NCBI GenBank assembly: GCA_040767195.1
Contig: JAXGPA010000005.1
Coordinates: 81,426 to 145,425 of the forward strand
Reading direction: 5' to 3'
Source of the DNA: Syntrophales bacterium
GTDB taxonomy: Bacteria > Desulfobacterota > Syntrophia > Syntrophales > UBA6807
DNA length: 64,000 bases
Below, one piece after another: positions 20,968 to 36,731 of this stretch. Each line of letters begins with the position of its first letter. The first letter of the stretch is position 1. Both the position numbers and the translations under genes were made by a program. Below the pieces are notes generated by a model. It was not told the origin of the DNA. It ran no database searches and saw only the letters and a list, made by a program, of their open reading frames with translations.

Positions 20968-21545
20968 TGCGAAGGCTCTATGACTGGGTCCTTCACTTCG
21001 CCGAAACCCCTTTCGGAACCTGGGCCCTCTTTCTCCTCGCGTTTGCCGAATCGAGCTTCTTTCCCATTCCGCCGGACGTTCTCCTCATCGCCCTGGCCCT
21101 GGCGATCCCGGCCCGGGCGTTCCGGTATGCCGCCGTCTGCACCGCCGGTTCCGTTCTCGGCGGCATGCTCGGGTATGTCATCGGTTACGGTTTCATGGAA
21201 GCGGTGGGATTCAGGATTCTCGAATTCTACGGTCTCTCGGATAAGTTCGGCGTCATCGGCGGGCTTTACAACCAATACAGCGCCTGGGTGGTGGGTATCG
21301 CGGGGTTTACCCCCATCCCCTACAAGGTGTTCACCATTGCCGGCGGGGCTTTTAAAATCCACTTCCCCGTCTTCGTCGCCGCGTCCGTCGTCAGCCGGGG
21401 CGCCCGTTTTTTTCTTGTGGGCTGGCTGATACACCGTTACGGGGAGCCGATAAAAACCTTCATGAACCGGTATTTCAATCTTCTCACCATTCTTTTCACG
21501 GTTCTCCTCGTGGGGGGGTTCGTCCTCCTGCGCTGGTTCTTCTGA
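20967..21545 (+). CDS. YqaA/DedA-family membrane protein
   Basis: AFAESSFFPIPPD, GFTPIPYKVFTI, SRGARFF; usual position between pcm and nlpD. Confidence 0.9.
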   Translation: MRRLYDWVLHFAETPFGTWALFLLAFAESSFFPIPPDVLLIALALAIPARAFRYAAVCTAGSVLGGMLGYVIGYGFMEAVGFRILEFYGLSDKFGVIGGLYNQYSAWVVGIAGFTPIPYKVFTIAGGAFKIHFPVFVAASVVSRGARFFLVGWLIHRYGEPIKTFMNRYFNLLTILFTVLLVGGFVLLRWFF

Positions 21546-21578
21546 AAGGCGGCAATAGACGGGAGCATGGAAGGTGCC

Positions 21579-22358
21579 ATGCGACATTGCATCATCATCG
21601 TCCTTTCCCTCGTTCTCATGGCCTGCTCGGGACCCGGGGAGAGGTCCGGGGAGCCGGGGACGGGCGTCTACCACTGCGTCGAGGCGGGGGAAACGCTCTG
21701 GTCCATCGCCCGTCTCTATGGCCAGGACGCGGCCACCCTGGCCCGGGTGAACGGCATCGACGATCCCGCCTCCCTGCCTGTCGACACCGTTCTTTTTGTG
21801 CCCGGGGCGGGCCGAACGCTTGCCGGGGAAAGCGACGGGGAAGAACCGCCGGACCGGCCGGCGGCGAAAGAGTCGGCAAAAGCGCCGCCGGAAAAACGGA
21901 CCTCCCCCGGAGCCGGAGCCGGGGCGCCCGGGGAGAAGAAAAAAAAGACCGTTTCCCCACCGCCGGCCCTCAAGGGGTCCCCGTTCATCTGGCCCGTCGA
22001 AGGACCGGTCCTTTCCACCTTCGGCCGGCAGTCCGACGGCATGGTCTACAACGGCATACGGATCGGGGGCAAGGAGGGCGCTTCGGTGAAGGCTTCCGCA
22101 TCGGGGACGGTGATCCACTCGGCGACGCTGAAGTATTACGGGGAAACGGTGATTCTCAAGCACGGGGACGGTTACTGCACCGTCTATGCCCACCTGAAGG
22201 ACAGGCGGGTCAAGGCGGGGGACCGGATACGCCAGGGCGAACCCATCGCCCGTGTCGGGACGGACGAAAAGAAGGGCATTCCCTGCCTCCATTTCGAGAT
22301 ACGGAAGGGAAACCGGCCGAGAGACCCCCTGAAATACCTTTCTTCCCGCGAAGGGTGA
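21579..22358 (+). CDS. LysM + M23 peptidase lipoprotein (NlpD-like)
   Basis: Lipobox LMAC, LysM GETLWSIAR, WPV.G, YAHL, LHFEIR. Confidence 0.88.
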   Translation: MRHCIIIVLSLVLMACSGPGERSGEPGTGVYHCVEAGETLWSIARLYGQDAATLARVNGIDDPASLPVDTVLFVPGAGRTLAGESDGEEPPDRPAAKESAKAPPEKRTSPGAGAGAPGEKKKKTVSPPPALKGSPFIWPVEGPVLSTFGRQSDGMVYNGIRIGGKEGASVKASASGTVIHSATLKYYGETVILKHGDGYCTVYAHLKDRRVKAGDRIRQGEPIARVGTDEKKGIPCLHFEIRKGNRPRDPLKYLSSREG

Positions 22359-22475
22359 CCGTCCTGTCGATAGAGGAGAAAGCGCTTTTTTACGGCCGGC
22401 CATGGCCCAAACTCATTATCAAAATAAAACGGCCCATTCAACCGGGGCGAGTCAACAAACATTATAGGAGAAGAG

Positions 22476-23141
22476 ATGAAGCTTGATGAAAATCTTTACG
22501 TTTACGAGTGGACCGATTTCATGGAAAACAACTGCAACAGCTATTACATCGGGGGTCCTGGGATTCTCATCGACCCCGGGCTGAAAAAATTCTTTCCCGA
22601 TCTCCTGGAGCGGATGGGGGAAGACGGGATTGGGGAAGAAGAAATCCGCTATGTTCTGAACACCCACTCCCACCCCGATCACTTCGAAGCGTCGGTGCTC
22701 TTCAACGGCAACGGTCAGGTTAAAACGGGACTGAGCCCGGAAGAGAGAACCTTTCACGAGGCGTCGGGAAAACTTCTTTACAGCTGGTTCGGCCTCGACC
22801 TTCCCGAGGTGGACATCGATCTGGATCTTCCTGAAGGCCCGCTGGTCCTGGATGGCGAGTCCTTCCAGGTCCTCCTGACTCCCGGTCACTCCCCCGGTCA
22901 TGTCTGTCTCTACTGGCCCGGGCGAAAAGCCCTTTTCTGCGGAGACGTCATTTTCAACCAGAACGTGGGCCGGACCGATTTCCCCGGAGGAAACGGCGAG
23001 CACCTCAAGCGAAGCATCCTCCGCCTTTCACAGCTGGATGTGGAGCACCTCCTCCCGGGGCACATGGATATCATCACGGGCAAGGAACGGGTCCGGAAGA
23101 ACTTCCGCCAGGTCATCGAGTTCGTTTTCCCGTACATTTGA
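22476..23141 (+). CDS. MBL-fold metallo-hydrolase
   Basis: THSHPDH, TPGHSPG, GD, PGH. Confidence 0.88.
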   Translation: MKLDENLYVYEWTDFMENNCNSYYIGGPGILIDPGLKKFFPDLLERMGEDGIGEEEIRYVLNTHSHPDHFEASVLFNGNGQVKTGLSPEERTFHEASGKLLYSWFGLDLPEVDIDLDLPEGPLVLDGESFQVLLTPGHSPGHVCLYWPGRKALFCGDVIFNQNVGRTDFPGGNGEHLKRSILRLSQLDVEHLLPGHMDIITGKERVRKNFRQVIEFVFPYI

Positions 23142-23170
23142 TGACCCCCGGAAGGAAAACGCAAAAGCAT

Positions 23171-23199
23171 TTGACGGATGGGAGAAAAAGGGATATGGT
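23171..23199 (+). promoter_or_regulatory. Sigma70-type promoter
   Basis: TTGACG-17 bp-TATGGT upstream of the MBL-purC genes. Confidence 0.55.
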
Positions 23200-23238
23200 G
23201 CCCTTCTTTGAAAATTAAAGAAAAGGAGCAGTACTTTC

Positions 23239-23874
23239 ATGGTCTTGGAACAGATCCAGGTAGGCCACATGGCCGTGTTCGCTTATCTCATCGGGGATGA
23301 GAAAACCGGTGAGGCCGCTCTCGTCGACCCCGCCGCGGAGGTGGATCTTCTCCTTCGCGAGGCGGAGAGCCGGGGTCTTTCCATTCGCTACATCATCAAC
23401 ACCCACGGACACGTGGATCACATCGCCGGCAACGCCGAGTGCAAGAAGGCGACGGGGGCCCGGATCGTCATCCATGAAGGGGACGCGGGGATGCTGACCT
23501 CCACGCCGTCCATGATACTGCGCATGTTTCACGCCAGGCCGTCGCCGCCGGCGGACCTCACGGTCCGAGACGGGGACGTTCTCCCCCTGGGGGATCACTC
23601 CTGGAAAATTCTTCACACGCCGGGGCACTCGCCGGGGGGGATGTGTCTTTACACCCCGGGCTATGTTCTCACCGGCGACACGCTTTTCGTGGAGAGCGTC
23701 GGCCGGACGGATCTTCCAGGCGGGTCCTGGGAGATTCTCCATCGTTCCATAACGGAAAAGCTCGCCACGCTCCCGGAAGACACGGTGGTCCTGCCGGGGC
23801 ATAATTACGGCCGGGTTTCCCAATCCACCATCGGGCACGAGAAGCGCCGCAATCCTTTCCTGAGACGGGGGTAG
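23239..23874 (+). CDS. MBL-fold hydrolase (glyoxalase II-like)
   Basis: THGHVDH, HTPGHSPG, TGDTLF, GRTDLPGG, PGH. Confidence 0.88.
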   Translation: MVLEQIQVGHMAVFAYLIGDEKTGEAALVDPAAEVDLLLREAESRGLSIRYIINTHGHVDHIAGNAECKKATGARIVIHEGDAGMLTSTPSMILRMFHARPSPPADLTVRDGDVLPLGDHSWKILHTPGHSPGGMCLYTPGYVLTGDTLFVESVGRTDLPGGSWEILHRSITEKLATLPEDTVVLPGHNYGRVSQSTIGHEKRRNPFLRRG

Positions 23875-23881
23875 GTAAGCC

Positions 23882-24766
23882 ATGGAAACAAAGGGACTGT
23901 CAAGGGTCGATCTCCCGGGGCTGACTTTCCGGGCTCGGGGAAAGGTACGGGACATTTACGATCTCGGGGAAGCCCTCCTCATCGTGGCGACGGACCGGAT
24001 ATCGGCGTTCGACGTCATTTTTCCCGATCCTGTCCCCGGCAAGGGAAAGATTCTCACGCGCCTGTCCCTTTTCTGGTTCGACCAGGTCCGGGACCTGGTG
24101 GAAAATCATCTCATCACCGCCGACGTGAGGGCTTACCCGGAGCCCTGCCGGCCCTACGAGGCGCTTCTCGAGGGGCGGAGCATGCTCGTCCGGAAAGCCC
24201 GCCCCCTGCCCGTGGAATGCGTGGTCCGGGGCTATCTGACCGGCTCGGCCTGGAAAGACTACCGGGAGGGCCGCCCTGTTTCCGGGATCCGGCTCCCGGA
24301 AGGGCTCGTCGAATCGGCCCGCCTGGAGACGCCTCTTTTCACGCCGTCCACCAAGGCCCCGGAAGGCGAGCACGACCTTCCCATTTCCATGGCGGAAATG
24401 GAGAGACTCATCGGCCCGGGACTGGCTGAAAAGGTCGCCCGCCTGTCCCTTCGGGTTTACGAAAGGGCCCAGTCGCTGGCGGAGGAACGGGGAATCATCA
24501 TCGCCGACACGAAAATGGAGTTCGGGACCATCGGCGATGATCTCATCCTCATTGACGAGCTGCTCACCCCGGACTCTTCCCGGTTCTGGCCCCGGGAAGA
24601 ATATGAAGAGGGCCGTCCCCAGAAAAGTTTCGACAAGCAGGTTCTCAGGGATTACCTTCTTGCCACGGGCTGGAACCAGAAGCCCCCGGCACCGAGGCTT
24701 CCCGCGGACATCGTGAAAAAAACACGGGAACGATACGAGGAGGCCGTCCGCCGTCTCCTCCCATAG
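23882..24766 (+). CDS. purC: SAICAR synthetase
   Basis: GKVRDIY, DRISAFD, ECVVRGY, FTPSTKA, ADTK.EFG, DELLTPDSSRFW, DKQ. Confidence 0.96.
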   Translation: METKGLSRVDLPGLTFRARGKVRDIYDLGEALLIVATDRISAFDVIFPDPVPGKGKILTRLSLFWFDQVRDLVENHLITADVRAYPEPCRPYEALLEGRSMLVRKARPLPVECVVRGYLTGSAWKDYREGRPVSGIRLPEGLVESARLETPLFTPSTKAPEGEHDLPISMAEMERLIGPGLAEKVARLSLRVYERAQSLAEERGIIIADTKMEFGTIGDDLILIDELLTPDSSRFWPREEYEEGRPQKSFDKQVLRDYLLATGWNQKPPAPRLPADIVKKTRERYEEAVRRLLP

Positions 24767-24777
24767 ACCCGCTTTCC

Positions 24778-24806
24778 TTGACAGGCGGAAAGAGGGATAT
24801 TAAATT
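24778..24806 (+). promoter_or_regulatory. Sigma70-type promoter of dnaJ
   Basis: TTGACA-17 bp-TAAATT. Confidence 0.55.
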
Positions 24807-24875
24807 AAATGATGTATTTTTCTGCCTTTTTAAAGATCCCACCGGGACGGCCCGAAGAAGGTTCACGTTGATTTC

Positions 24876-25937
24876 ATGAAGAACGACTATTACCGCGTCC
24901 TCGGGGTGGAGCGCAGCGCCTCCCCTGAAGAGATCAAGAAAAATTACAGAAAACTCGCCATGAAATTCCACCCCGATCGCAACCCCGGCGATCGGGAGGC
25001 GGAGGAAAAATTCAAGGAAGCCGCCGAGGCTTACGAGGTTCTGTGCGATCCCGAGAAGCGGGGTATTTACGACCGCTACGGGCACGAGGGTCTCCAGGGG
25101 TCGGGATACCGCGGCTTTTCGGGGTTCGAGGATATTTTTTCCAGCTTCGGAGACATTTTCGAGGATGTTTTCGGGTTCGGCGGGGGCGCCCGGGCCCGTT
25201 CCCGGACAGCCGCCCGGGCCGGGGCGGACCTCCGGTACGACCTCCGGGTGGCGTTCATGGACGCCGCTTTCGGGACGTCCCGGGAAATCGACGTGGAAAG
25301 GCTTGTCCGGTGCGATCCGTGCCAGGGGACGGGGGCTGCCGAGGGATCGAGTCCCGAGGTCTGCGGCACCTGCCACGGGAGAGGGCAGGTGACCCAGCGA
25401 AGCGGGTTTTTCAGCATCAGCACGACCTGTCCCTACTGCCGCGGAGAAGGGCGGATCATACGAAACCCCTGCCGGTCCTGCCGGGGGACGGGCCGAAAGC
25501 TGCAAAGCAAATCCGTTCATATCAGGATCCCGCCGGGCGTGGAAACGGGATCCCGCCTGAGGCTTCGCGGGGAAGGCGAAGAAGGCGAACACGGTGGCCC
25601 TCCGGGGGATCTTTATGTCTTCATCGAGGTCGAGCCCCACCCGTTCTTCGAGCGGCACGGAGACGACATCCTCCTGAAACTGACCGTTTCCGTGACCCAG
25701 GCGGCCCTGGGAGCCACCCTGGAGGTTCCCACCCTGAACGGGGCGGAAAAAATAAAGATTCCCCGGGGAACGCAGCACGGGAAGATTTTCCGCCTTCCGG
25801 GAAAAGGGATTCCCAACCTGCGCGGCCGGGGACGGGGAGACCAGGTCGTCGAGGCCTGCGTGGAAGTCCCCACCAACCTGTCCAAGCAGGAGGAGAAAGT
25901 CCTCCGGGAATTCGCCCGGCTTCGCGGCGAAAGCTGA
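24876..25937 (+). CDS. dnaJ: Chaperone DnaJ
   Basis: J-domain with HPD, G/F region, four CxxCxGxG repeats, C-terminal domain. Confidence 0.96.
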
Positions 25938-25982
25938 CGCGGCGGCCCCCCAGGCCGCTTCCCGCCCCAGCGGAAAATCCCG

Positions 25983-26011
25983 TTGACACGAAAAGACGAG
26001 TTCCCTATACT
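25983..26011 (+). promoter_or_regulatory. Near-consensus sigma70 promoter of carB-purF
   Basis: TTGACA-17 bp-TATACT, 69 bp upstream of the carB ATG. Confidence 0.7.
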
Positions 26012-26079
26012 CCAACCGCCTTCAGGACGGAGACCGGAAAAAAGAGAACCTAACGACAAGCCAGGAAAAGGAAACCCCC

Positions 26080-29000
26080 ATGCCCCCACGGACAGACATC
26101 AGGAAAGTTCTCATCATCGGTTCAGGCCCCATCATCATCGGGCAGGCCTGCGAGTTTGACTATTCGGGAACCCAGGCGTGCAAGGCCCTGAAAAAACTGG
26201 GGTACGAGGTGGTCCTGGTGAACTCCAACCCCGCCACCATCATGACGGACCCCGAGATGGCCGACATGACCTACATCGAACCGCTCAACATCCAGACGCT
26301 TCGGGACATCATCGAAAAGGAAAGGCCCGACGCCATCCTGCCCAACCTGGGCGGGCAGACGGGGTTGAATCTTTCATCGGAACTTTACAGGAAGGGGATA
26401 CTCGACGCCTTCGACGTCACGGTCATCGGTGTCAACGTCGACGCCATCGAGAGGGGGGAGGATCGGATCGCCTTCAAGGAAACCATGAACCGCCTGGGAA
26501 TCGAGATACCGAGGAGCAAACCCGCCTACACCGTGGAGGAGGCGGAGGCCATCGCCGATGAACTGGGCTACCCCGTGGTGGTCCGGCCCGCTTACACCCT
26601 CGGGGGTACGGGCGGCGGGCTCGTTTACAACCGGGAGGAACTCCAAGTCGTTGCGAGCCGGGGGATCGCCGCCAGCATGATCGGCCAGGTTCTCATCGAG
26701 GAGTCCGTTCTCGGCTGGGAGGAGCTGGAACTCGAGGTCGTCCGCGACGCGAAGAACCAGATGATTACCGTCTGCTTCATCGAGAACGTGGACCCCATGG
26801 GCGTCCACACCGGTGACTCGTACTGTACCGCCCCCATGCTCACCATCTCGCCGGAACTCCAGGAAAGGCTGCAGAAATATTCATACCACATCGTCGAGGC
26901 CATCGAGGTCATCGGGGGGACCAACGTCCAGTTCGCCCACGACCCCGCCACGGGACGGGTCGTGGTCATCGAAATCAATCCCAGGACCTCCCGTTCATCC
27001 GCCCTGGCCTCCAAGGCGACGGGGTTTCCCATCGCCATGATTTCCGCCATGCTCGCCGCGGGCCTGACCCTGGACGAGATCCCCTACTGGAAAGAGGGAA
27101 CCCTCGACAAGTACCGGCCCTCGGGGGATTACGTGGTCGTCAAGTTCGCCCGGTGGGCCTTCGAGAAGTTTCCCGGTTCCGAGGACGCTCTGGGCACCCA
27201 GATGCGGGCCGTGGGTGAGGTCATGAGCATCGGGAAGACCTACAAGGAGGCCTTCCAGAAAGCCATACGGTCCCTGGAAATCGGCCGTTATGGACTTGGT
27301 TTTGCCCGGGATTTCCATGAAAAGCCCCTGGACGAGCTCATGAAGCTCCTTTCCAGGGCGACCAGCGAAAGGCAGTTTCTCATGTACGAAGCCCTTCGGA
27401 AGGGCGCCACCGTGGAGGCGCTCCATGAGAAAACGGCCATCAAGCGGTGGTTTATCGAGCAGATGAAGGAGCTCGTGGAGCTGGAGGAGGAAATCCTGTC
27501 CCACCGGGGGGGTACGATTCCCGACGATCTTCTCGCCCGGGCCAAGAAAGACGGCTTCTCGGACCGTTATCTCTCCAGGCTTCTCGCCCGGGCGGAAAGG
27601 GACATTCGAAAGCAGCGGACCGCCCTGGGGGTCGTCCACGGGTGGGAACCGGTGCCCGTGAGCGGTGTCGAGGACGCCGCCTACTACTATTCCACCTACA
27701 ACGCCCCGGACAGTGTTTCCACGACGGGAAACCGCAAGGTCATCGTCCTGGGCGGGGGGCCGAACCGGATCGGCCAGGGGATCGAATTCGACTATTGCTG
27801 CGTGCACGCCGCCTTCGCCCTCCGGGACGAGGGGGTGGAGTCCATCATGATCAACTGCAACCCCGAGACGGTTTCCACGGATTACGACACGGCGAACCGC
27901 CTCTACTTCGAACCTCTCACCGTGGAAGACGTGCTCGCCATTTATGAAAAGGAAAAGCCCGAAGGGGTCATCGTCCAGTTCGGCGGGCAGACCCCTCTCA
28001 ACATCGCCGGCGAACTGGCCGCCGAGGGGGTGCGGATCCTCGGGACGTCGCCGGAAACCATCGACCTCGCCGAAGACCGGGACCGGTTCCGCAAGATGAT
28101 GGAAAAGCTCGACATCCCGGAGCCCGAATCAGGGATGGCGAGCACCCTCGACGAGGCCCTGGCGATCGCCACGAAGATCGGGTACCCTCTCATCGTCCGT
28201 CCTTCCTATGTTCTCGGGGGCCGGGGAATGGAGATCGTCTACGACGAGGACATGCTCCGCCGGTATCTCGCCGCCGCGGTGGAGGTGACGCCGGAACGGC
28301 CCATTCTCATCGACAAGTTCCTGGAGGATGCCATCGAATCGGAGACGGACGCCATTTCCGACGGCCGGGACGTCTTCATCCCCGCCGTGATGGAGCACAT
28401 CGAACTGGCGGGAATCCACTCCGGCGACTCGGCCTGCGTGATACCGCCCATCAGCATCTCGGCCCGTCACATGGACACCATCTCGGAATACACGAAACGA
28501 ATCGCCCTGGAACTTGACGTGGTCGGCCTCATGAACATACAATACGCCATCGCCGACGACGTGGTGTACATCCTGGAAGCGAATCCCAGGGCGTCGCGGA
28601 CCGTTCCCCTCGTGTCCAAGGTCTGCAACGTTTCCATGGCCAGGATCGCCACCCAGCTCATGCTGGGGAAACGTCTTGTCGACCTCCGGCTGAAGCCCGG
28701 GCGCGTTTCCCACTTCGGGGTAAAGGAAGCGGTTTTTCCCTTCAACATGTTTCCCGAGGTGGACCCCGTCCTGGGACCGGAGATGCGCTCCACCGGGGAA
28801 GTCCTCGGCCTTGCCGATTCCTTCGGCCTCGCCTTTTACAAGGCCGAGGAAGCGGCCTCCCAGACGCTCCCGTCGGCAGGGACGGTCCTCATCACCGTTT
28901 CCGACCGGGACAAGGCTTCCATCGTGGAAGTGGCCAGGGCTTTCGTCTCCCTGGGGTTCAAGGTCCGCACCACCGGGGGCACCGGTGACTTTCTCAAGTC

Positions 29001-29280
29001 CCGGGGCATCCAGACGGAGGGCATCCTCAAAATGCATGAGGGCCGGCCGAACATCGTCGACGCCATCAAGAACAGCGAGATCCAGCTCGTCATCAACACG
29101 CCCAGCGGGCGGTTGAGCCAGCACGACGATTCCTACATCCGCAAGGCGGCGATCAAGTACAAGGTGCCGTACATCACGACGGCCGCGGCGGCTGTCGCCG
29201 CCGTCAAGGGGATCGCGGCCCTCGAAAAGGGACACGGCCAGGTGAAGTCGGTACAGCAGTACCACAAGGAGATTCTTTGA
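26080..29280 (+). CDS. carB: Carbamoyl-phosphate synthase large subunit
   Basis: GSGPIIIGQACEFDYSG, NSNPATIMTD, GVHTGDS, NPRTSRSSALASKATG, second ATP-grasp domain, MGS domain. Confidence 0.97.
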   Translation: MPPRTDIRKVLIIGSGPIIIGQACEFDYSGTQACKALKKLGYEVVLVNSNPATIMTDPEMADMTYIEPLNIQTLRDIIEKERPDAILPNLGGQTGLNLSSELYRKGILDAFDVTVIGVNVDAIERGEDRIAFKETMNRLGIEIPRSKPAYTVEEAEAIADELGYPVVVRPAYTLGGTGGGLVYNREELQVVASRGIAASMIGQVLIEESVLGWEELELEVVRDAKNQMITVCFIENVDPMGVHTGDSYCTAPMLTISPELQERLQKYSYHIVEAIEVIGGTNVQFAHDPATGRVVVIEINPRTSRSSALASKATGFPIAMISAMLAAGLTLDEIPYWKEGTLDKYRPSGDYVVVKFARWAFEKFPGSEDALGTQMRAVGEVMSIGKTYKEAFQKAIRSLEIGRYGLGFARDFHEKPLDELMKLLSRATSERQFLMYEALRKGATVEALHEKTAIKRWFIEQMKELVELEEEILSHRGGTIPDDLLARAKKDGFSDRYLSRLLARAERDIRKQRTALGVVHGWEPVPVSGVEDAAYYYSTYNAPDSVSTTGNRKVIVLGGGPNRIGQGIEFDYCCVHAAFALRDEGVESIMINCNPETVSTDYDTANRLYFEPLTVEDVLAIYEKEKPEGVIVQFGGQTPLNIAGELAAEGVRILGTSPETIDLAEDRDRFRKMMEKLDIPEPESGMASTLDEALAIATKIGYPLIVRPSYVLGGRGMEIVYDEDMLRRYLAAAVEVTPERPILIDKFLEDAIESETDAISDGRDVFIPAVMEHIELAGIHSGDSACVIPPISISARHMDTISEYTKRIALELDVVGLMNIQYAIADDVVYILEANPRASRTVPLVSKVCNVSMARIATQLMLGKRLVDLRLKPGRVSHFGVKEAVFPFNMFPEVDPVLGPEMRSTGEVLGLADSFGLAFYKAEEAASQTLPSAGTVLITVSDRDKASIVEVARAFVSLGFKVRTTGGTGDFLKSRGIQTEGILKMHEGRPNIVDAIKNSEIQLVINTPSGRLSQHDDSYIRKAAIKYKVPYITTAAAAVAAVKGIAALEKGHGQVKSVQQYHKEIL

Positions 29281-29287
29281 GGGACCC

Positions 29288-30676
29288 ATGAAAACGCCCG
29301 GTGTGACAGGAGAAAATTGCGGGATCTTCGGCATATACTCCAATGAGCCGTGTGCCGACGACATTTACCGGGGCATTGACTTTCTCCAGCACCGGGGCCA
29401 GGAATACTGCGGGATCTCGACCTTCGACAGGGGGCTCCACCATGTCACCCACCACGGCAAGGTGATCACCATGTTCACCGAGGAGGAACTCCGGGGTCTC
29501 CGGGGCCGGTGGGGCATCGGACACGTGAGCCTCTGGGAACGGCAGCCCATGAAGTGGCAGACCCAGGTGGGTGAAATTGCCGTCGCTTTCAGCGGGAACG
29601 TCATGAACGCCGAGGCGCTCATGATGGACATGATGCACCGCGGAAAGTCCTTTTACAAGGGATACAATATCGAGATCCTGTCCAAGGTCATCATCGAGGA
29701 GCAGGACATCGCCAGGGGTATCGCCGCCCTGGCTCGAAAAGTGAAGGGCGCCTACTCTCTCGTGGTGGTCACCCGGGATGGGGTGTATGCCGCCCGGGAT
29801 GTCTACGGTTTCAGGCCTCTCATCCTCGGGACGGACGGGACCCGTTTCGTGGTGAGCTCCGAATCGAGGGCCCTGAAGAACCTGGACCTGGAAATCGTCC
29901 GGGATGTCGAGCCCGGGGAGATTCTTCTGATCAACCAGAAGGGATTCCAGACCCTGGAAAGGATCCCCTCTCCCAGGAAAGCCCACTGTGCCTTCGAGTG
30001 GGCCTATACGGCCAGCATCGATTCGGTCATCGACGGCGTCTATGTCCAGGAAGCCCGCAGCAACCTGGGGGAACAACTGGCCCGCAGGGACATGGAAGAG
30101 GGCGGACTGCCCGGGGATTTCGTGGCGCCGGTCCCCCTTTCCGGCATCGGTCATGCCCTGGGCTATCACCGGTTCTCCCGGATTCCCTACCAGGAGGTTT
30201 TTCTTTACCACCGCTACGCCGACCGGAGCTACACCCAGACCACCCAACCGGCCCGGGAGAGGATGGCCAAGCGGAAACTCTCCGTTTTGCCCTTTGCCGT
30301 CCAGGGAAGCCGAATCATCATCTGCGACGACTCCATCGTCCGGGGGACCCAGATCATGAACAAGGTGCGGGACCTGAAGAAGGCCGGGGCCCGGGAGGTC
30401 CATGTCCGGGTGGCCTGCCCCCCCCTCATGTACCCCTGTGATTTCGGCATTTCGACACGGTCTTACGACGAACTCATCGCCCGGCACTTCATTTCCGAGG
30501 GCAATATCACATCGAAGGAAGCGCTTCGGGCCCTCGAAACCTGGCTGGCCCGTCAGATCGACGCCGATTCCGTGCGGTTCAACAGTCTTGAAAGATTCGT
30601 GTCGGCCCTGAAGATTCCCGGCGAGGATCTCTGCCTCAAGTGTTTCGACGGCCGCTTTCCCATCGAGAACCGCTGA
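29288..30676 (+). CDS. purF: Amidophosphoribosyltransferase (4Fe-4S type) with degenerate glutamine site
   Basis: 10-aa propeptide then CGIFG, LQHRGQE, PRPP loop DDSIVRGT, Fe-S Cys (CAFE, PCDFG, CLKC). Confidence 0.9.
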   Translation: MKTPGVTGENCGIFGIYSNEPCADDIYRGIDFLQHRGQEYCGISTFDRGLHHVTHHGKVITMFTEEELRGLRGRWGIGHVSLWERQPMKWQTQVGEIAVAFSGNVMNAEALMMDMMHRGKSFYKGYNIEILSKVIIEEQDIARGIAALARKVKGAYSLVVVTRDGVYAARDVYGFRPLILGTDGTRFVVSSESRALKNLDLEIVRDVEPGEILLINQKGFQTLERIPSPRKAHCAFEWAYTASIDSVIDGVYVQEARSNLGEQLARRDMEEGGLPGDFVAPVPLSGIGHALGYHRFSRIPYQEVFLYHRYADRSYTQTTQPARERMAKRKLSVLPFAVQGSRIIICDDSIVRGTQIMNKVRDLKKAGAREVHVRVACPPLMYPCDFGISTRSYDELIARHFISEGNITSKEALRALETWLARQIDADSVRFNSLERFVSALKIPGEDLCLKCFDGRFPIENR

Positions 30677-30728
30677 AGCCGGGGGGAAGGGGAAAACGGG
30701 GCCGTTGCGGAGGAAGGACAATCGGCTC

Positions 30729-31634
30729 ATGGATCGACGCAGTTTCATCAGGAAAATGATCATCGCCGCCGCCGCCGTGTCCTGCCCGGCGGCTTTTTCA
30801 CCCCTTGCGGCATCCCGGGCCGCGCCGGCGCCGGCACCGGACCTCGCCGTGGCCCGGGGTCCTTCTCCGGAGCGGATCGTCGCGTCCGCCATCGATGCCC
30901 TGGGAGGGATGAAACGTTTTGTTTCCCCCGGGGACATCGTCGTCGTCAAGCCCAACATGGGGTGGGACCGGGCGCCCGAGTTCGGTGCGAACACCCATCC
31001 CGCTGTCGTGGCCGCCCTCGTGGGACTCGCTGTGGAGGCGGGGGCGAAGAGGGTCAAGGTTTTTGACCACACGGTGAACGACCCGAGGCGATGTTACCGT
31101 CAGAGCGGCGTCGCCGCGGCGGCGGAGGCGGCCGGTGCCGAGGTTTCCTTCGTCGACAAAAGGAAATTCAAGTCGGTGCGCCTCGACGGCGAGGTCCTCA
31201 AGGAGTGGCCCCTCTACGAGGACATCCTCGAGGCCGACAAAATCATCAACGTGCCCGTCGCGAAAACCCACGGCCTTTCCACCCTGACCCTGGCCCTGAA
31301 AAACTGGATGGGCGTCATGGGAGGCGGCCGCTGGCGGATTCATCAGCGGATTCACGAGAGCCTCGTCGATGTGGCCCGGAAGGTAAAGCCCACCCTCACC
31401 GTTCTCGATGCCGTGCGCATTCTCACCGCCAACGGGCCCCAGGGGGGGCGGCTCGAGGACGTGAAGGTTCTCGACACGGTCATTGCCGGTACCGACCAGG
31501 TGGCCGTCGATTCATACGGGGCCACCCTTTTCGGCCTCCGGGGAAGGGACCTGGGGTATGTCCGGATCGGCCATGAAACGGGGCTCGGCAACATGAACCT
31601 GGAAAGCCTGGACATTCGGAAAATCACCCTGTAG
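30729..31634 (+). CDS. DUF362 family protein with Tat signal
   Basis: RRSFI twin-arginine; GGM..FV.PGD.VVVKPN, ANTHP, INVP.AKTH, LKN.MG, D.VAVD. Confidence 0.85.
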   Translation: MDRRSFIRKMIIAAAAVSCPAAFSPLAASRAAPAPAPDLAVARGPSPERIVASAIDALGGMKRFVSPGDIVVVKPNMGWDRAPEFGANTHPAVVAALVGLAVEAGAKRVKVFDHTVNDPRRCYRQSGVAAAAEAAGAEVSFVDKRKFKSVRLDGEVLKEWPLYEDILEADKIINVPVAKTHGLSTLTLALKNWMGVMGGGRWRIHQRIHESLVDVARKVKPTLTVLDAVRILTANGPQGGRLEDVKVLDTVIAGTDQVAVDSYGATLFGLRGRDLGYVRIGHETGLGNMNLESLDIRKITL

Positions 31635-31662
31635 ACGCCTTCATTCCCGAGGAGGCCCCTCC

Positions 31663-33210
31663 ATGAGAATGACGTCACTTCGCTGGTTCGTCCAGGGGGC
31701 CTTTCTGCTCCTGTTTCTCTTCCTTTTCCTCCAGACGGAGTCGAAAGGGGAGGATACCCTGGGCTATCCCGTCCGCTTTTTTCTCGACTTCGACCCCCTG
31801 GTCTTCCTGTCCACCCTCCTCTCCGCGAGAGTCCTCGTTCCCGGGTTTCTCCTGTCCCTTCTCCTCGTCGTCCTCACGATCTTTCTGGGCCGGGTCTTCT
31901 GCGGGTGGGTCTGCCCCCTGGGAACGATTCACAACCTCACGGGGATTCTCAACAGGCGAAAAAGACCGGTTCTCCCCCCGGGCGCCCGCCGATGGAAGTA
32001 TCTCGTTTTGCTCTTTCTTCTGGCCTCCTCCCTTTTCACCGCCCAGGTCACGGGATTCCTCGATCCGCTCTGCCTGCTCATCCGGTCTCTCACCCTTTTC
32101 CTGTATCCCCTCTTTCAGAACGGTCTGGAAGCGGTCTTCAGGGCCGCCGCCGAGGCACCCGTTTCTTTCCTGGCCGCCCCTGCCGAGGCTTTTTACACCC
32201 TGTTTCAGAGATTCCTTTTCGCCTTCCGGGAACCTCATTTTTACCAGGCTGTTTTTACGGGGCTTTTTTTCGGCCTCATCGTGGGACTGAATCTCCTGGA
32301 AAGGCGTTTCTGGTGCAAATATCTCTGCCCGCTCGGCGCTCTCCTGGGCCTCCTCTCCCGAAAAGCCGTTCTGAAACGGTCCGTCGGTGAAGGCTGCACG
32401 GACTGCGGCCGGTGTCAGAAGGCCTGCCAGGGGGCGGCCATCGGGGGTGATCCCCGGGAAACGATCCCCTCCGAGTGCCTCGTTTGTTTCGATTGTGACG
32501 ATCTGTGTCCCGTCGGGGCCGTCCGGTTCGGTTTTCGAGGAGGGGAAAAGGGGCAGGCCCTTCACTTGGGGCGGCGGGCCGTTCTTCTTTCTCTTTTCAG
32601 CGGGGCCCTGGCCGTCCCGTTTCTCCGGGTCAGCCCGCAGAGCCGGTCGGGCCTGTTCCCGGGGAAGTTGATCCGGCCGCCGGGAGCCCTGGATGAAAAG
32701 GACTTCCTCGCTCACTGCGTCCGGTGCGGCGAGTGCATGAAGGTCTGCCTGACCAACGGACTTCAGCCGACCTTTCTGGAAGCGGGACTGGAAGGCCTGT
32801 GGACGCCCGTCCTCGTTCCATCGGTCGGTTACTGCGAGTATCGCTGCACGCTCTGCGGGCAGGTCTGCCCCACGGGGGCCATCCGGCCGCTGAAGCGTGA
32901 AGACAGGAAGCACGTGAAAATCGGGACGGCCTTCATCGACCCGGGGCGCTGCCTTCCCTACGCCTTCGGCATTCCCTGCCTGGTCTGCGAGGAAGTCTGT
33001 CCCACCGAGGTCAAATCGATCTGGTTCGAAACGGTCCGGGTGATCGGGCGGGAGGGGCGGGAGGAACCCGTCAAAAGGCCCCACGTGGACCCCGCCCTGT
33101 GCGTGGGATGCGGGATCTGCGAACACTACTGCCCCGTCCGGGGTGAACCGGCCATCCGGGTGGTCAGCACGGGAGAGTCCCGGTCAAAAGAAAACCGGCT
33201 GCTCCTCTGA
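31663..33210 (+). CDS. Polyferredoxin membrane protein (NapH/MauN-like fused to NapG/MauM-like)
   Basis: GRVFCGWVCPLG, RFWCKYLCPLG, several CxxCxxCxxxCP motifs, IRPPGA. Confidence 0.85.
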   Translation: MRMTSLRWFVQGAFLLLFLFLFLQTESKGEDTLGYPVRFFLDFDPLVFLSTLLSARVLVPGFLLSLLLVVLTIFLGRVFCGWVCPLGTIHNLTGILNRRKRPVLPPGARRWKYLVLLFLLASSLFTAQVTGFLDPLCLLIRSLTLFLYPLFQNGLEAVFRAAAEAPVSFLAAPAEAFYTLFQRFLFAFREPHFYQAVFTGLFFGLIVGLNLLERRFWCKYLCPLGALLGLLSRKAVLKRSVGEGCTDCGRCQKACQGAAIGGDPRETIPSECLVCFDCDDLCPVGAVRFGFRGGEKGQALHLGRRAVLLSLFSGALAVPFLRVSPQSRSGLFPGKLIRPPGALDEKDFLAHCVRCGECMKVCLTNGLQPTFLEAGLEGLWTPVLVPSVGYCEYRCTLCGQVCPTGAIRPLKREDRKHVKIGTAFIDPGRCLPYAFGIPCLVCEEVCPTEVKSIWFETVRVIGREGREEPVKRPHVDPALCVGCGICEHYCPVRGEPAIRVVSTGESRSKENRLLL

Positions 33211-33250
33211 AGGAGGCAGCCGGTCTTCCCGGTTTTTTTAGCCTTGTGCC

Positions 33251-33562
33251 TTAACAGCTGCAGCTCGTTCCGCAGGAACGGGGTGCCATGCTCGAATCGA
33301 TCTTGAATCCCGATCGTGTCCCCACCTGGATAAAATCGATCTTGACGGGCTGGATTTCGTCCATCAGGTCGGGCGCCACGAGAAAGGTGAACCCCTTCTC
33401 CTCGAACACCCTGTCATCCGTTTTAGGCTCATCCAGAGCCATTCCCAGTGAAGGGCCCGCTCAACCGCCCTCGAAAAGCATGATCCGGATGGGCGGGACA
33501 GGGCTCCTGTCCTTGAGGGATGTCTTCAGCATCTCAATGGCTTTTTCGGTAACTTCAAACAT
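33251..33562 (-). CDS. HesB/IscA-like selenoprotein (Sec at codon 34, UGA at 33461-33463)
   Basis: AGGAG RBS, ATG at 33562; MFEVTEKAIEML...IRIMLFEGG-UGA-AGPSLGMALDEP...SCGTSCSC; UGA lies at the conserved Cys of GGCxG. Confidence 0.88.
33426..33440 (-). promoter_or_regulatory. Putative bacterial SECIS hairpin
   Basis: GGCUC-UGGAU-GAGCC stem-loop; loop starts 25 nt after the in-frame UGA and has a G near its 5' side. Confidence 0.6.
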
Positions 33563-33630
33563 TCGCTTTCTCCTGTTCTCATGAGTCGATTTTTTTCGAA
33601 GATCACATCGAAAACTATTTTCTTGAATAA

Positions 33631-33657
33631 TATATTACTTTTTTCTTCCTTGTCAAA
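33631..33657 (-). promoter_or_regulatory. Sigma70-type promoter of the HesB-like selenoprotein gene
   Basis: Minus strand TTGACA-16 bp-TATATT in an AT-rich patch. Confidence 0.5.
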
Positions 33658-33800
33658 CAGGACGACCCCCCAGGGCTGCCCCTGAAAACCGCTGTCTAGG
33701 CCACCTGTAACCTCCGGTTATCACGGCACTTGGCCGGGAAGGCCGGCTCCTCCCAAACCGGAGGTCTTCACCACCGGAAAAAGGGTGTTTGCCGTCTTGT
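33657..33800. ncRNA. Unassigned structured RNA-like element
   Basis: Nested inverted repeats: ACCTCCGGTT/AACCGGAGGT, inner GGCC/GGCC hairpin, imperfect outer ACAGGACGAC/GCCGTCTTGT; no credible ORF. Confidence 0.35.
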
Positions 33801-33881
33801 CATTTCAAGAGATCGAAATCGGTCAAGGTAGGAACTATAACAGGCGCCAGTCCTCCGTTCGGGACGGCCGGCGCAGGGAGG

Positions 33882-34301
33882 TCACTTGACGAGCAGAATG
33901 GGACAGGTGCAAAGCATGCCCACCTTGTAGCTGATGGTCCCCCACCCCTCGGACGGTCGGCCCAGGTCCACCCTGTGGGAGTTCATGACGATCAGGTCGC
34001 TTCTGTTTTCCTCGGAGAATTTCAATATTTCCTGGGCCCGGTTGCCGTACGTGACGGTTTCGTTGATGGTCACCCCGTGATTCTGGAAGGCCTTCCTTTG
34101 CTCCGCCATCTGTTGACGGGCCTTGTTTTCCAGTTTTCTGTAAAACTCCTCGCACTCTTCGAAGGACGTTCCCTGAATGATTTCAACGACATGGAGCAGT
34201 TGCACGGTTCCGCCGTAGTGCTCGGCGATATTGACGGCGATATCCAGGGGCCGGAGGCTCCTTTCGGAAAAATCCGTAGGCACCAGAATCTGCTTGAACA
34301 T
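33882..34301 (-). CDS. Universal stress protein
   Basis: FKQILVPTDFS, LLHV, DLIVM.SH, G.IS.KV, CPILLVK. Confidence 0.92.
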   Translation of the reverse strand: MFKQILVPTDFSERSLRPLDIAVNIAEHYGGTVQLLHVVEIIQGTSFEECEEFYRKLENKARQQMAEQRKAFQNHGVTINETVTYGNRAQEILKFSEENRSDLIVMNSHRVDLGRPSEGWGTISYKVGMLCTCPILLVK

Positions 34302-34630
34302 GACAGACCTCTCTTTACCGGGATGTTTCCGCCGTCCGCGGACGGGCTCCCGTGATCGCCCGGGGCCTCACGCCTCCCCGGTCCACCCGCCCTTTCGGGT
34401 TACCGGTCTTCCGGCCCCGGCTTCCCGTGACGGCCCATGCAGATTTTCTTACCAGCATTGACTGGCGGTTTCAATTTTTTTGTCGGTTTTTTTCCGAGCG
34501 GGATCGACCTTGGAATGCCTCTTGCCGGAAAGTCCCGATCATGCCATAAAAATAGGATATGGACTTCAGCCCTGTTCAGGTTACGAGCAGCCCGGTTTGA
34601 CTTCGCGATGAGGAAAGGGAGAACGAAATT

Positions 34631-35539
34631 ATGAATATTTTCATGACAGGCGGCACGGGGTTTGTTGGAACGACACTGGCGAGGGAACTTTCCGCCGCCA
34701 GCCACAGGGTGACCATCCTGACGAGACCGGGAAAGGAAAAAAAGACGAGCCTGGCCGGTGTTTCTTACGTGGACGGGGACCCGACACGGCGGGGACCCTG
34801 GCAGGAGAAAGTGCCCGGTCACGATGTGCTGATCAACCTGGCCGGTTCGCCTGTTTTTGCCCGATGGACGGACGCTGTTAAAAAGGATCTCAGGGAAAGC
34901 CGCATTCTTACCACGGCCCATCTCGTGGAGGCCCTTGAATCCGGGCCGGGGGAACGCCCTTCTCTTTTAAGCACGTCCGCGGTGGGTTATTACGGTTTTC
35001 ACGGGGATGAGGAACTGGATGAGAGGTCTGGCCCGGGATCGGATTTTCTCGCCACCCTGGCCTTGGAGTGGGAGGAAAAGGCCCTGGAGGCGGAAAAGCG
35101 CGGGGTCCGCGTGGTTCTCTGCCGTTTCGGCATCGTCATGGGGAAAAACGGCGGCGCCCTGGCCCAGATGGTCCGCCCGTTCCGCTTCGGCGCGGGAAGC
35201 CCGCTGGGAAGCGGCAGACAGTGGTTTTCCTGGATTCACGAGATGGATCTCGTCCGCATCTTCCTTTTTCTCATGGAAAATCAGGAAATAACGGGACCCG
35301 TGAACTGTACGGCCCCCCACCCCGTCCGGAACGGAGAACTCACAAAAATCATGGGCCGGGTTCTCGGGGTTCCCACCTTCCTGCCCGCCGTCCCGGGGTT
35401 CCTGGTTTCCCTGATCCTTGGGGAATTCGGCAGCGTTCTCCTGAAGGGACAGAAAGTCATGCCGGTTAAGCTTCTGAAGGCAGGGTTCCGTTTCGAGTAT
35501 CCCGACATGGAAAGGGCCCTCAAAAATCTTCTGAAATAA
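34631..35539 (+). CDS. TIGR01777 family NAD-dependent epimerase (YfcH-like)
   Basis: TGGTGFVG, INLAG, SAVGYYG, R.GIV, GSGRQWFSWIH, GPVN.TAP. Confidence 0.92.
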   Translation: MNIFMTGGTGFVGTTLARELSAASHRVTILTRPGKEKKTSLAGVSYVDGDPTRRGPWQEKVPGHDVLINLAGSPVFARWTDAVKKDLRESRILTTAHLVEALESGPGERPSLLSTSAVGYYGFHGDEELDERSGPGSDFLATLALEWEEKALEAEKRGVRVVLCRFGIVMGKNGGALAQMVRPFRFGAGSPLGSGRQWFSWIHEMDLVRIFLFLMENQEITGPVNCTAPHPVRNGELTKIMGRVLGVPTFLPAVPGFLVSLILGEFGSVLLKGQKVMPVKLLKAGFRFEYPDMERALKNLLK

Positions 35540-35738
35540 CAGGCCGGAAAAGACGGTTCTGAAAGATCCGACGGCGTGGCCGTGAAAAAAAGGATCATCC
35601 CGTTGTCTGTGGCGATGAAATATGCTAAAAAGTATCGATTATAAGAGCGGCGGCAAAGCCGTGTTCCCGGAGGCGGGTCCGGCGGCTCCGCGAGGTAATT
35701 TGACAGGGCCGGATTGCGAGGTTTCAAGCGGGTTCATC

Positions 35739-36731
35739 ATGATTGACAGGTTTCACAGGGATATCAACTACCTTCGTATTTCCGTGACGGACCGGTGCAA
35801 TCTCCGGTGCCGGTACTGCATGCCCAAGGAGGGCGTTTCCCTCATGGGCCACGAGGATATCCTGACGTACGAGGAAATCCTCCGCGTCGTCAGGCTGGCC
35901 GTCGGCATGGGTATCGCCAAGGTTCGCGTCACCGGGGGGGAACCTCTCGTCCGCCTGGGAATCGTCGATTTCATAAAGGAATTGAAGGGGATCGACGGCC
36001 TCCAGGATATCAGTATCACCACGAACGGGATTCTGCTCGAAACCTTCGCCGAGCCCCTTTACCGGGCCGGCCTCAAGCGGATCAACGTCAGCCTGGATTC
36101 CCTGGATCCTGAAAAATACAAGTACATCACGAGGGGCGGCGACCTGGCCAGGGTTCTCCGGGGAATCGAAAAGGCGGAGGCCGTGGGGTTCGACCCCATC
36201 AAGATCAACGTTGTGGCCATCCGTCATTTCAACGAGGACGAAGTGGTCCGCTTCTCGGACATGACCGTGGACAAACCCTATCATGTCCGGTTCATCGAAC
36301 TCATGAACATCGGAAACGGCGGCGAGAAAAATTCCCTGGCATATCTTTCCAACGACACGGTGCTTGAGGAAATCCGCCGGGTTCACGCCCTGGTGCCCCT
36401 GAACGGCAAAAGGGCGTCCACCGACGGGCCCGCCCGGTGTTTCAGGGTCTCCGGCGGGAAGGGGGAACTCGGTTTCATCAGCGCCACGAGCCACCAGTTC
36501 TGTGACAGCTGCAACCGTTTGCGCCTGACCGCGGAAGGCCATCTCAGGGCCTGCCTCCTGTCCGATCGCGAGATCGACCTCAAGGACGCCCTGCGAGGAG
36601 AATGCGACGACGAGGACATCCGGGCCCTTCTTCAGCGGGCGGTCCTGGAGAAGCCGAGAGGGTCTTTCGAACCCGCCTGCCCCAGGAATAGAAAAAAATG
36701 CGAGCGGCACATGTCCTCCATCGGGGGCTGA
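35739..36731 (+). CDS. moaA: GTP 3',8-cyclase (molybdenum cofactor biosynthesis)
   Basis: YLRISVTDRCNLRCRYCMP, TGGEPL, FC..CNRLRLTA.G.L..CL, C-terminal IGG. Confidence 0.96.
   Translation: MIDRFHRDINYLRISVTDRCNLRCRYCMPKEGVSLMGHEDILTYEEILRVVRLAVGMGIAKVRVTGGEPLVRLGIVDFIKELKGIDGLQDISITTNGILLETFAEPLYRAGLKRINVSLDSLDPEKYKYITRGGDLARVLRGIEKAEAVGFDPIKINVVAIRHFNEDEVVRFSDMTVDKPYHVRFIELMNIGNGGEKNSLAYLSNDTVLEEIRRVHALVPLNGKRASTDGPARCFRVSGGKGELGFISATSHQFCDSCNRLRLTAEGHLRACLLSDREIDLKDALRGECDDEDIRALLQRAVLEKPRGSFEPACPRNRKKCERHMSSIGG

What the first reader, a model, noticed from the sequence alone, without database searches (positions are those of the whole stretch)
29288..29720. PurF with a dismantled glutaminase site: candidate ammonia-dependent PRPP amidotransferase
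Knowledge: class II (Ntn) amidotransferases conserve Cys1, Arg26, Gly27, Gly32, Arg73, Pro86, Asn101, Gly102 and Asp127 (E. coli PurF numbering); Arg73, Asn101 and Asp127 bind glutamine or form the oxyanion hole. Seen: Cys1, HRG, G32, QP and G102 are kept. GHVRY(S/A)T+loop has become GHVSLWERQP (Arg lost, glutamine loop shortened by about 8 aa), AHNGN has become AFSGN, and SDTE has become YNIE. The PRPP loop and all four Fe-S cysteines are intact. Inference: selective loss of exactly the glutamine-handling residues points to use of free NH3.
Basis: partly seen in the sequence, partly recalled or inferred. Interest (0 to 1): 0.78.

Follow-up and report, generated by a model that had tools for sequence, protein, structure and literature searches.

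The report
Second PurF likely using free ammonia
Besides its normal glutamine-using enzymes, this anaerobic bacterium carries a conserved second gene pair in which the purine-starting enzyme PurF has lost its glutamine-binding loop, so the pair likely starts nucleotide synthesis straight from free ammonia, which would save energy where ammonia is plentiful.

Summary
Observation confirmed. ORF 29288-30676 keeps Cys1, HRG, the PRPP loop and four Fe-S cysteines, but lacks Arg73/Tyr74 (8-residue loop deletion) and has Asn101->Ser and Asp127->Asn. It is not a decaying gene: the rebuilt motifs are invariant in 120 of 120 closest homologues and both domains are under purifying selection. The genome also has a canonical purF-carA-guaA-carB operon. 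This copy (PurF2) sits 7 nt behind a second carB that has no carA; the pairing holds in 65 of 80 genome loci. PurF2 belongs to a wide short-loop lineage in which Cys1 is often lost; PurF2 and its Cys-less sister never co-occurred in 41 genomes. Canonical genes often lie by glutamine synthetase, these never did within 12 kb. Best reading (0.67): an ammonia-dependent phosphoribosylamine synthase paired with an ammonia-dependent CarB, echoing Bacteroides CarB2. Against: Cys1 and a new Arg are invariant within PurF2, Asp127 survives in about 38% of the family, and nothing was assayed. The scan reported this operon twice before on other genomes; ten literature-style searches and reads found no description of the subfamily.

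The parts
25983..26011 (+). Near-consensus sigma-70-type promoter (TTGACA-17-TATACT) upstream of carB2
   Evidence: 11 of 12 matches; a site with at least 10 of 12 in 46 of 56 carB2 upstream regions, about 7 of them the same locus fetched twice, no shuffle control
26080..29280 (+). carB2: second carbamoyl-phosphate synthetase large subunit (1066 aa) with no carA beside it
   Evidence: TIGR01369 1369 bits, over cut-off; genome has two carB and one carA; 55% identical to CarB1
26848..26877 (+). CarB2 helix 257-266, replaced relative to E. coli CarB and CarB1; recalled as a CarA-contact helix
   Evidence: E. coli alignment; family comparison; its role is recalled, papers not held
29279..29283 (+). 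Ribosome-binding-like GAGGG overlapping the carB2 stop codon; 7-nt gap to purF2
   Evidence: sequence
29288..30676 (+). purF2: short-loop PurF paralog, 462 aa, Ntn domain plus type I PRTase domain
   Evidence: model pLDDT 92.6; Z 43-47 to solved PurF
29288..29320 (+). Predicted propeptide (10 aa) and Cys1
   Evidence: Cys in 120 of 120 and 90 of 90; cleavage inferred
29387..29413 (+). QHRGQE motif (Arg26, Gly27) and Gly32, kept
29519..29548 (+). Shortened glutamine loop GHVSLWERQP (Arg73, Tyr74 gone; new invariant Arg85)
29585..29599 (+). AFSGN: Asn101 to Ser, His100 to Phe, Gly102 kept
29663..29674 (+). YNIE: Ser126 to Tyr, Asp127 to Asn (variable in the family)
30131..30145 (+). PPi loop VPLSG: canonical Asp replaced by Leu (Met 86%, Leu 14% in PurF2)
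30206..30238 (+). PRTase flexible loop; Ile335 equivalent is Thr316
   Evidence: Ile335-Tyr74 pair from PMC7953260 passages
30323..30349 (+). PRPP-binding loop CDDSIVRGT, intact
30632..30643 (+). CxxC pair of Fe-S ligands (others at 29987-29989 and 30437-30439)

Best explanation
PurF2 is a conserved second PurF that has lost its glutamine-binding loop and likely makes phosphoribosylamine from PRPP and free ammonia, working beside an orphan CarB that likely makes carbamoyl phosphate from free ammonia. Shown: the lesions, their conservation, the intact PRPP loop, Fe-S ligands and fold, the carB2-purF2 pairing, and a separate canonical operon. Inferred: without the glutamine loop and its Tyr74-Ile335 channel wall, ammonia reaches the PRPP site from solvent; the operon is a housekeeping route for ammonia-rich conditions that avoids the ATP spent on glutamine synthetase, while the canonical glutamine route covers ammonia shortage; Cys1 is kept for propeptide processing or packing rather than for glutamine hydrolysis.
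For: (1) Arg73 salt-bridges the glutamine carboxylate and Tyr74-Ile335 form a wall of the ammonia channel (PMC7953260 passages); all three are gone in 90 of 90 PurF2. Cys1 mutants of E. coli PurF still use ammonia (PMC3261824 section 6). (2) PRTase side intact and selected: DDSIVRGT and Fe-S Cys invariant; median dN/dS 0.14 PRTase, 0.19 Ntn; fold Z 43-47, rmsd 2.2-2.6 A over 420-428 residues. (3) carB2 directly upstream in 65 of 80 loci; 9 of the other 15 start within 400 nt of the locus end; no carA in any of the 80. All 17 PurF2 genomes among 41 have carB2. (4) carB2 is the only carB, and no carA was found, in G002, G006, G013, G034 (94-100% complete), which keep two carbamoyltransferase genes each; in G034 glnA is followed directly by purF1. 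(5) Among 133 full-length 50%-level representatives, 33 have the short loop: Cys1 in 9 (31 have the N-terminus), Arg-Tyr in 0, Asn101 in 4, yet DDS in 30 and four Fe-S Cys in 28; the 100 long-loop ones keep Cys1 93, Arg-Tyr 90, Asn101 94. (6) The Cys-less sister type (PurF3) and PurF2 occur in 17 and 17 of 41 genomes, 0 together, and PurF3 also follows carB2 in L108, L162, L164. Six genomes without carB2 carry instead a CarA lacking the catalytic Cys and His. (7) Canonical carA lies within 12 kb of a glutamine synthetase gene in 16 of 34 cases, purF1 16 of 36; carB2 0 of 31, purF2 0 of 18, purF3 0 of 17. No ammonium transporter was found in 6 of 7 genomes without a live carA, against 4 of 34 with one (about four independent lineages). 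(8) Precedent: B. thetaiotaomicron orphan CarB2 is needed at high ammonium, CarAB at low (PMC8121099 section 13). (9) PurF2 is the only PurF found in G002 and G006, which have purD.
Against: No activity was measured. Cys1, Arg26, Ser81, Arg85 are invariant in 90 of 90 PurF2 genes with free synonymous variation, more than a dead pocket needs. Asp127 is kept in 35 of 90 PurF2 and 15 of 33 short-loop representatives. The PPi-loop Asp is replaced, so PRPP chemistry may differ. PurF2 nearly always co-occurs with canonical PurF; apparent PurF2-only genomes mostly dissolved on checking: G066 has purF1 at a contig end, G019 has an internally deleted purF1, G191 a truncated one whose three genus mates are intact. 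The clean cases are two MAGs of one genus, and G002 also lacks a guaA hit, so an assembly gap is possible there. In this genome the canonical operon is not next to glutamine synthetase and Amt is present. In G018 and G024 purF2 is on the same contig as glutamine synthetase, 16-20 kb away, just outside my 12-kb cut.
Confidence: 0.67

Rival explanations
1. The pocket is rebuilt, not dismantled: Cys1 attacks a small non-glutamine amide, most attractively carbamoyl phosphate made by the neighbouring CarB2 (Arg85 binding the phosphate, Ser in place of Asn101), and the released ammonia is channelled to PRPP.
For: Cys1, Arg26, Ser81, Arg85, Ser102 and Gly103 are invariant or nearly so in PurF2; tight pairing with carB2 and all 17 PurF2 genomes have it; Ntn amidotransferases with other donors exist, e.g. 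the hydroxyamidotransferase TsnB9 listed (title only).
Against: Cys-less PurF3 fills the same slot behind carB2 and excludes PurF2 across genomes; only 2 of 9 short-loop representatives that keep Cys1 have Arg before Gln-Pro; 6 PurF2 loci have other genes upstream; two ATP per nitrogen would be costlier than glutamine (established chemistry).
Confidence: 0.13
2. PurF2 still hydrolyses glutamine, with Arg85 replacing Arg73, Ser replacing Asn101 in the oxyanion hole, and looser coupling or regulation.
For: Cys1, HRG, Gly102 kept; Asp127 present in 35 of 90; new invariant Arg next to the old loop.
Against: Whole loop including Tyr74 and the Thr76/Ala77 backbone contacts to the substrate is deleted; Asp127 drifts freely to Asn, His, Ser, Ala; Ile335 also changed; sister lineages lose Cys1 repeatedly.
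Confidence: 0.1
3. PurF2 is not a purine entry enzyme: it transfers ribose phosphate to another acceptor, or is a non-catalytic nucleotide-sensing partner of CarB2.
For: PPi loop, flexible loop and other PRTase positions are systematically changed; below the TIGR01134 cut-off, 311 against 350 bits; canonical PurF is almost always also present.
Against: PRPP-loop residues needed for activity in the plant enzyme (PMC7056826 passages) and the pyrophosphate-binding Tyr are invariant; only PurF found in G002 and G006, which have purD; purC lies close upstream in 9 of 81 loci.
Confidence: 0.08
4. A decaying duplicate or an assembly error.
For: Several catalytic residues are missing.
Against: Invariant replacement motifs in 120 of 120 homologues, dN/dS below 0.2, same sequence in independent libraries, confident fold.
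Confidence: 0.02

Closest known systems
Glutamine PRPP amidotransferase PurF, Fe-S type with propeptide (B. subtilis 1ao0/1gph, Arabidopsis 6lbp; TIGR01134; EC 2.4.2.14)
   Same: Two-domain fold (Z 45-47), propeptide plus Cys1, HRG, Gly32, Gln-Pro, Gly102, PRPP loop, four Fe-S cysteines; about 35% identity
   Different: 8-residue deletion removing Arg73/Tyr74, Asn101Ser, Ser126Tyr, Asp127 variable, PPi-loop Asp to Met/Leu, Ile335Thr, an insertion near residues 402-414; below family cut-off; encoded behind an orphan carB
Crenarchaeal PurF' (Brown et al. 2011, PMC3261824, section 6 read)
   Same: Second PurF beside a canonical one, glutaminase site defective, proposed but untested as an ammonia-dependent PRPP aminotransferase
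   Different: PurF' lacks Cys1 and lies in purine clusters; PurF2 keeps Cys1, lost the loop, and lies behind carB2; kinship of the two was not tested
B. thetaiotaomicron orphan CarB2, BT3866 (Liu et al. 2021, PMC8121099, section 13 and supplement rows read)
   Same: Lone second CarB without a glutaminase partner, beside a canonical CarAB; that genome also has two purF genes, BT0555 co-fit with carAB (r 0.91, 0.82) and BT4582 with its own phenotypes
   Different: The paper's text does not discuss PurF; orthology of BT3866 to this CarB2 and the short-loop status of BT4582 (recalled) were not tested
Cys-less short-loop PurF (here PurF3; annotated simply amidophosphoribosyltransferase in Bacteroidales and others)
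   Same: Same loop length and shared derived residues in both domains; can follow carB2; at least 8000 clusters at E 1e-100
   Different: No propeptide, no Cys1, HRG replaced; uncharacterised as far as my searches show
Ammonia-dependent CPS of mitochondria (CPS1) and dead-CarA operons
   Same: Same logic of a synthetase freed from its glutaminase; six related genomes carry CarA without the catalytic Cys/His (residues from PMC6245113 passage)
   Different: Class I glutaminase, different pathway step

Membership tests
Glutamine-dependent PurF (TIGR01134, EC 2.4.2.14) | Whole-protein score over the curated cut-off | tested here: not met
   311 bits against 350; the genome's other purF scores 510
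Glutamine-dependent PurF (TIGR01134, EC 2.4.2.14) | Ntn domain fused to type I PRTase domain | tested here: met
   Model pLDDT 92.6; Z 43-47, TM about 0.87 to PurF
Glutamine-dependent PurF (TIGR01134, EC 2.4.2.14) | Cys1 with Arg26, Gly27, Gly32, Pro86, Gly102 | tested here: met
Glutamine-dependent PurF (TIGR01134, EC 2.4.2.14) | Glutamine loop with Arg73 and Tyr74 | tested here: not met
   8 residues deleted in 90 of 90 PurF2, present in 11 of 11 canonical
Glutamine-dependent PurF (TIGR01134, EC 2.4.2.14) | Asn101 (oxyanion hole; role recalled) | tested here: not met
   Ser in 120 of 120
Glutamine-dependent PurF (TIGR01134, EC 2.4.2.14) | Asp127 (glutamine amino group; role recalled) | tested here: not met
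   Asn in this protein; Asp in 45 of 120 and 35 of 90 family members
Glutamine-dependent PurF (TIGR01134, EC 2.4.2.14) | PRPP loop DDS-x-x-RGT and pyrophosphate-binding Tyr | tested here: met
   invariant; roles
Glutamine-dependent PurF (TIGR01134, EC 2.4.2.14) | PPi loop and flexible loop as in canonical enzymes | tested here: inconclusive
   Loops present, but Asp to Met/Leu and Ile335 to Thr/Met; effect unknown
Glutamine-dependent PurF (TIGR01134, EC 2.4.2.14) | Four Fe-S cysteines | tested here: met
   120 of 120
Glutamine-dependent PurF (TIGR01134, EC 2.4.2.14) | Glutamine-dependent phosphoribosylamine synthesis; propeptide cleavage | not testable with these tools
   needs assay
Crenarchaeal PurF' | No N-terminal cysteine | tested here: not met
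   Cys kept; met by the sister type PurF3
Crenarchaeal PurF' | Common descent with PurF' | not tested
   no named PurF' sequence was fetched
Bacteroides-type orphan CarB2 (partner gene) | Second CarB with no carA beside it | tested here: met
Bacteroides-type orphan CarB2 (partner gene) | Needed at high, not low, ammonium | not testable with these tools
   only indirect: gene context and Amt pattern
Bacteroides-type orphan CarB2 (partner gene) | Orthology to BT3866 | not tested
   sequence not available through the tools used

The most novel reading that the evidence does not exclude
Anaerobes across several phyla run a parallel, glutamine-free entry into purine, pyrimidine and arginine synthesis, built from a large unrecognised lineage of dedicated ammonia-dependent PurFs and CarBs; PurF2 is the intermediate stage that still holds Cys1, and in the boldest version that Cys1 takes its nitrogen from carbamoyl phosphate made by CarB2, a new amide donor for purine synthesis.
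Probability: 0.2. Interest if true: 0.82.

Novelty: new variant of a known kind. Interest (0 to 1): 0.58.

Why it matters
Every characterised PurF uses glutamine, and a dedicated ammonia-dependent PurF has only been proposed, for archaea. Bacterial ammonia-dependent CPS rests on fitness data in one species. A compact two-gene operon in energy-starved syntrophs would make both questions testable with one E. coli complementation and two enzyme assays. It would also mean that thousands of genes annotated as ordinary amidophosphoribosyltransferase in digester, sediment and gut anaerobes have a different nitrogen donor, which changes the ATP and nitrogen budgets in metabolic models.

Tried and rejected
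Pseudogene or sequencing error: rejected. Sole-PurF argument: of six candidate genomes, G066 (purF1 at contig end), G019 and G191 (broken purF1 of uncertain cause) were dropped, G014 has the PurF3 type only while its genus mate has purF1, leaving G002 and G006; their genus holds only these two genomes. G040 was dropped as a carA-less genome (carB1 fragment at a contig end) and G004 because no carB was found. Loss of glutamine synthetase as the driver: rejected, 41 of 41 genomes have a PF00120 match. General decay of glutaminases in this genome: rejected, six class I glutaminases keep their Cys and His-Pro-Glu motifs (one hit began too late to show more than these motifs). Expression: RNA libraries hold both operons but only as contigs with flat depth, so transcription and ranking are not shown. 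Tree: three groups each one side of a branch, but a three-group unrooted quick tree cannot show that PurF2 and PurF3 are sisters (42 of 134 unique sequences used); that claim rests on shared derived characters. No Rfam match in 20000-36000. The model gave no coordinates, so the reach of Arg85 was not inspected. Literature searches found no description of this subfamily; four primary papers on PurF and CPS residues were not held, so the roles of Asn101, Asp127, Phe259 and the CarB contact helix are recalled.

Full report
What is there. The window holds carB (26080-29280) followed 7 nt later by a 462-aa PurF-like ORF (29288-30676). The protein scores 311 bits on TIGR01134, below the 350 cut-off. 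A model built on 112 sequences has mean pLDDT 92.6 and matches solved PurF structures at Z 43-47, rmsd 2.2-2.6 A over 420-428 residues.

It is a conserved subfamily. In the 120 listed homologues (66-99% identical) Cys1, QHRGQ, GHVSL, RQP and AFSG are invariant. In 90 unique genes from loci, median pairwise dN/dS is 0.19 for the Ntn domain and 0.14 for the PRTase domain (434 and 502 unsaturated pairs), and the codons of Cys1, Arg26 and Arg85 vary synonymously. Contigs from anaerobic-digester libraries X1-X3 (one study) and a sludge library carry the same frame. Asp127 is variable, not fixed as lost: Asn 66, Asp 45 of 120, Asn 47, Asp 35 of 90. And the PRTase domain also changes: PPi-loop Asp to Met/Leu, Ile335 to Thr/Met, the Phe after the conserved Tyr to Thr. 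[quoted passage not shown]

It is a second copy. The genome (98.8% complete) has a canonical purF (510 bits) in an operon purF-carA-guaA-carB on the same contig, one carA in all, and two carB. Its six class I glutaminases keep their catalytic motifs, it has glutamine synthetase and an ammonium transporter. The nearest named relatives are Syntrophaceae, Syntrophales, Desulfobacterales and Desulfobacca MAGs.

The partner. carB2 lies directly upstream of purF2 in 65 of 80 genome loci; 9 of the other 15 begin within 400 nt of the locus end, 6 have other genes upstream; none of the 80 shows carA. CarB2 has replaced the helix that E. coli CarB and CarB1 share at 257-266, which I recall as a CarA contact. 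A near-consensus sigma-70 promoter precedes carB2 here and in 46 of 56 upstream regions examined, about 7 of them duplicates, without a shuffle control. Among 41 related genomes, no live carA was found in 7. Two were set aside (G040, G004). G002, G006, G013 and G034 have carB2 as their only carB and keep two carbamoyltransferase genes; G014 has only a dead CarA with its CarB. So CarB2 seems to work without CarA in at least two lineages.

The wider lineage. The same genomes revealed a third PurF type (PurF3) that starts Met-Gly-Gly or Met-Ser-Gly, has no Cys1 and no HRG, but has the same short loop and shares derived residues with PurF2 in both domains. PurF2 and PurF3 occur in 17 and 17 of 41 genomes and never together; 7 have neither; most canonical hits were classed by score and span, not read. 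PurF3 follows carB2 in three loci, is common in the phylum sample and has at least 8000 clusters, some named Bacteroidales. In the index-free search, 33 of 133 full-length representatives have the short loop; Cys1 survives in 9, Arg-Tyr in 0, Asn101 in 4, Asp127 in 15, while DDS is kept in 30 and all four Fe-S cysteines in 28; the 100 long-loop proteins keep Cys1 93, Arg-Tyr 90, Asn101 94, Asp127 95. Only 2 of the 9 short-loop proteins with Cys1 have Arg before Gln-Pro. This is the pattern expected when the glutaminase site is released from selection and the PRTase site is not. A quick tree of 42 of the 134 unique sequences separates the three types but cannot root them.

Nitrogen context. Canonical carA lies within 12 kb of a glutamine synthetase match in 16 of 34 cases and purF1 in 16 of 36; carB2 in 0 of 31, purF2 in 0 of 18, purF3 in 0 of 17 (the cut-off is mine, contigs are short, and two genomes have purF2 16-20 kb away). 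An ammonium transporter was not found in 6 of 7 genomes without live carA and in 4 of 34 with it; kin are not independent, so the nominal p of 3e-4 overstates about four lineages. Six genomes lacking carB2 carry a CarA without the catalytic Cys and His next to another carB, and none has both solutions.

What is in print. Brown et al. 2011 (section 6 read) note that E. coli PurF without Cys1 still uses ammonia and propose, untested, that a Cys-less crenarchaeal PurF' is ammonia-dependent. Liu et al. 2021 (section 13 and supplement rows read) show that an orphan CarB2 of B. thetaiotaomicron is needed at high ammonium and CarAB at low; that genome has two purF genes, one co-fit with carAB, but the text does not discuss them. 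Nine searches found no description of PurF2 or PurF3; the library lacks most subscription journals. The scan itself reported this operon from two other genomes; I recorded my reading before seeing those notes and do not count them as support.

Weighing. The best reading is an ammonia-dependent phosphoribosylamine synthase in a two-gene, glutamine-independent operon (0.67). The weak points are real. Nothing was assayed. Cys1 and Arg85 are under selection within PurF2, which leaves room for a rebuilt pocket using another amide such as carbamoyl phosphate (0.13) or still glutamine (0.10). The altered PPi loop leaves room for another reaction or a regulatory role (0.08). Evidence that PurF2 alone can feed purine synthesis rests on two MAGs of one genus, G002 and G006, which have purD and no other PurF; in G006 guaA has an unrelated upstream neighbour, but G002 lacks a guaA hit and may have a gap. 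Four other candidates were dropped. It works like PurF in fold and PRPP site, but fails the glutamine-site features, so it should not be filed as a glutamine-dependent PurF. Verdict: real, conserved, a new variant of a known enzyme with partial precedent, and cheap to test.

Noticed in passing
L092-L108, L162-L176, L181: PurF3: Cys-less, propeptide-less short-loop PurF; in most Syntrophales it lies behind coaD and an aminotransferase and before ispG-proS rather than behind carB2 (gene names from my reading of the translations).
   Followed up: partly
L132-L137: Six genomes carry a CarA with the catalytic Cys replaced by Gly, Ala or Ser and the catalytic His lost, upstream of a third carB type; none of them has carB2.
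   Followed up: partly
L182:4876-5445 and L183:4644-5522: Canonical purF is truncated at residue 179 in G191 and internally deleted (about 220-435) in G019, mid-contig, in genomes with intact purF2; real loss or misassembly not resolved.
   Followed up: partly
L119, L121-L127: PurF2 of several same-family genomes has an acidic insertion of about 25 residues after position 47 of the Ntn domain; 33 of 120 homologues have it.
   Followed up: no
L112:1743-5049: carB2 of the same-genus genome G001 is split into two overlapping frames, and its carB1 is also split; carB1 is likewise split in G018 and G036.
   Followed up: no
window 23882-24766: purC lies 1.3 kb of dnaJ-like gene away upstream of carB2; purC is near the pair in 9 of 81 loci.
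   Followed up: partly
window 30705-33210: Downstream are a Tat-like-signal protein with a weak Npun_F2552 family match and a membrane polyferredoxin (NapG/NapH-like); this neighbourhood is not conserved around purF2.
   Followed up: no
G164:C24:44347-45456 and G191:C34:20726-21829: In these two genomes the only purD match is weak (142-151 bits, cut-off 288), suggesting a divergent GAR synthetase.
   Followed up: no
G006:C175 and G006:C5: G006 has two purF2 copies, only one behind carB2.
   Followed up: no
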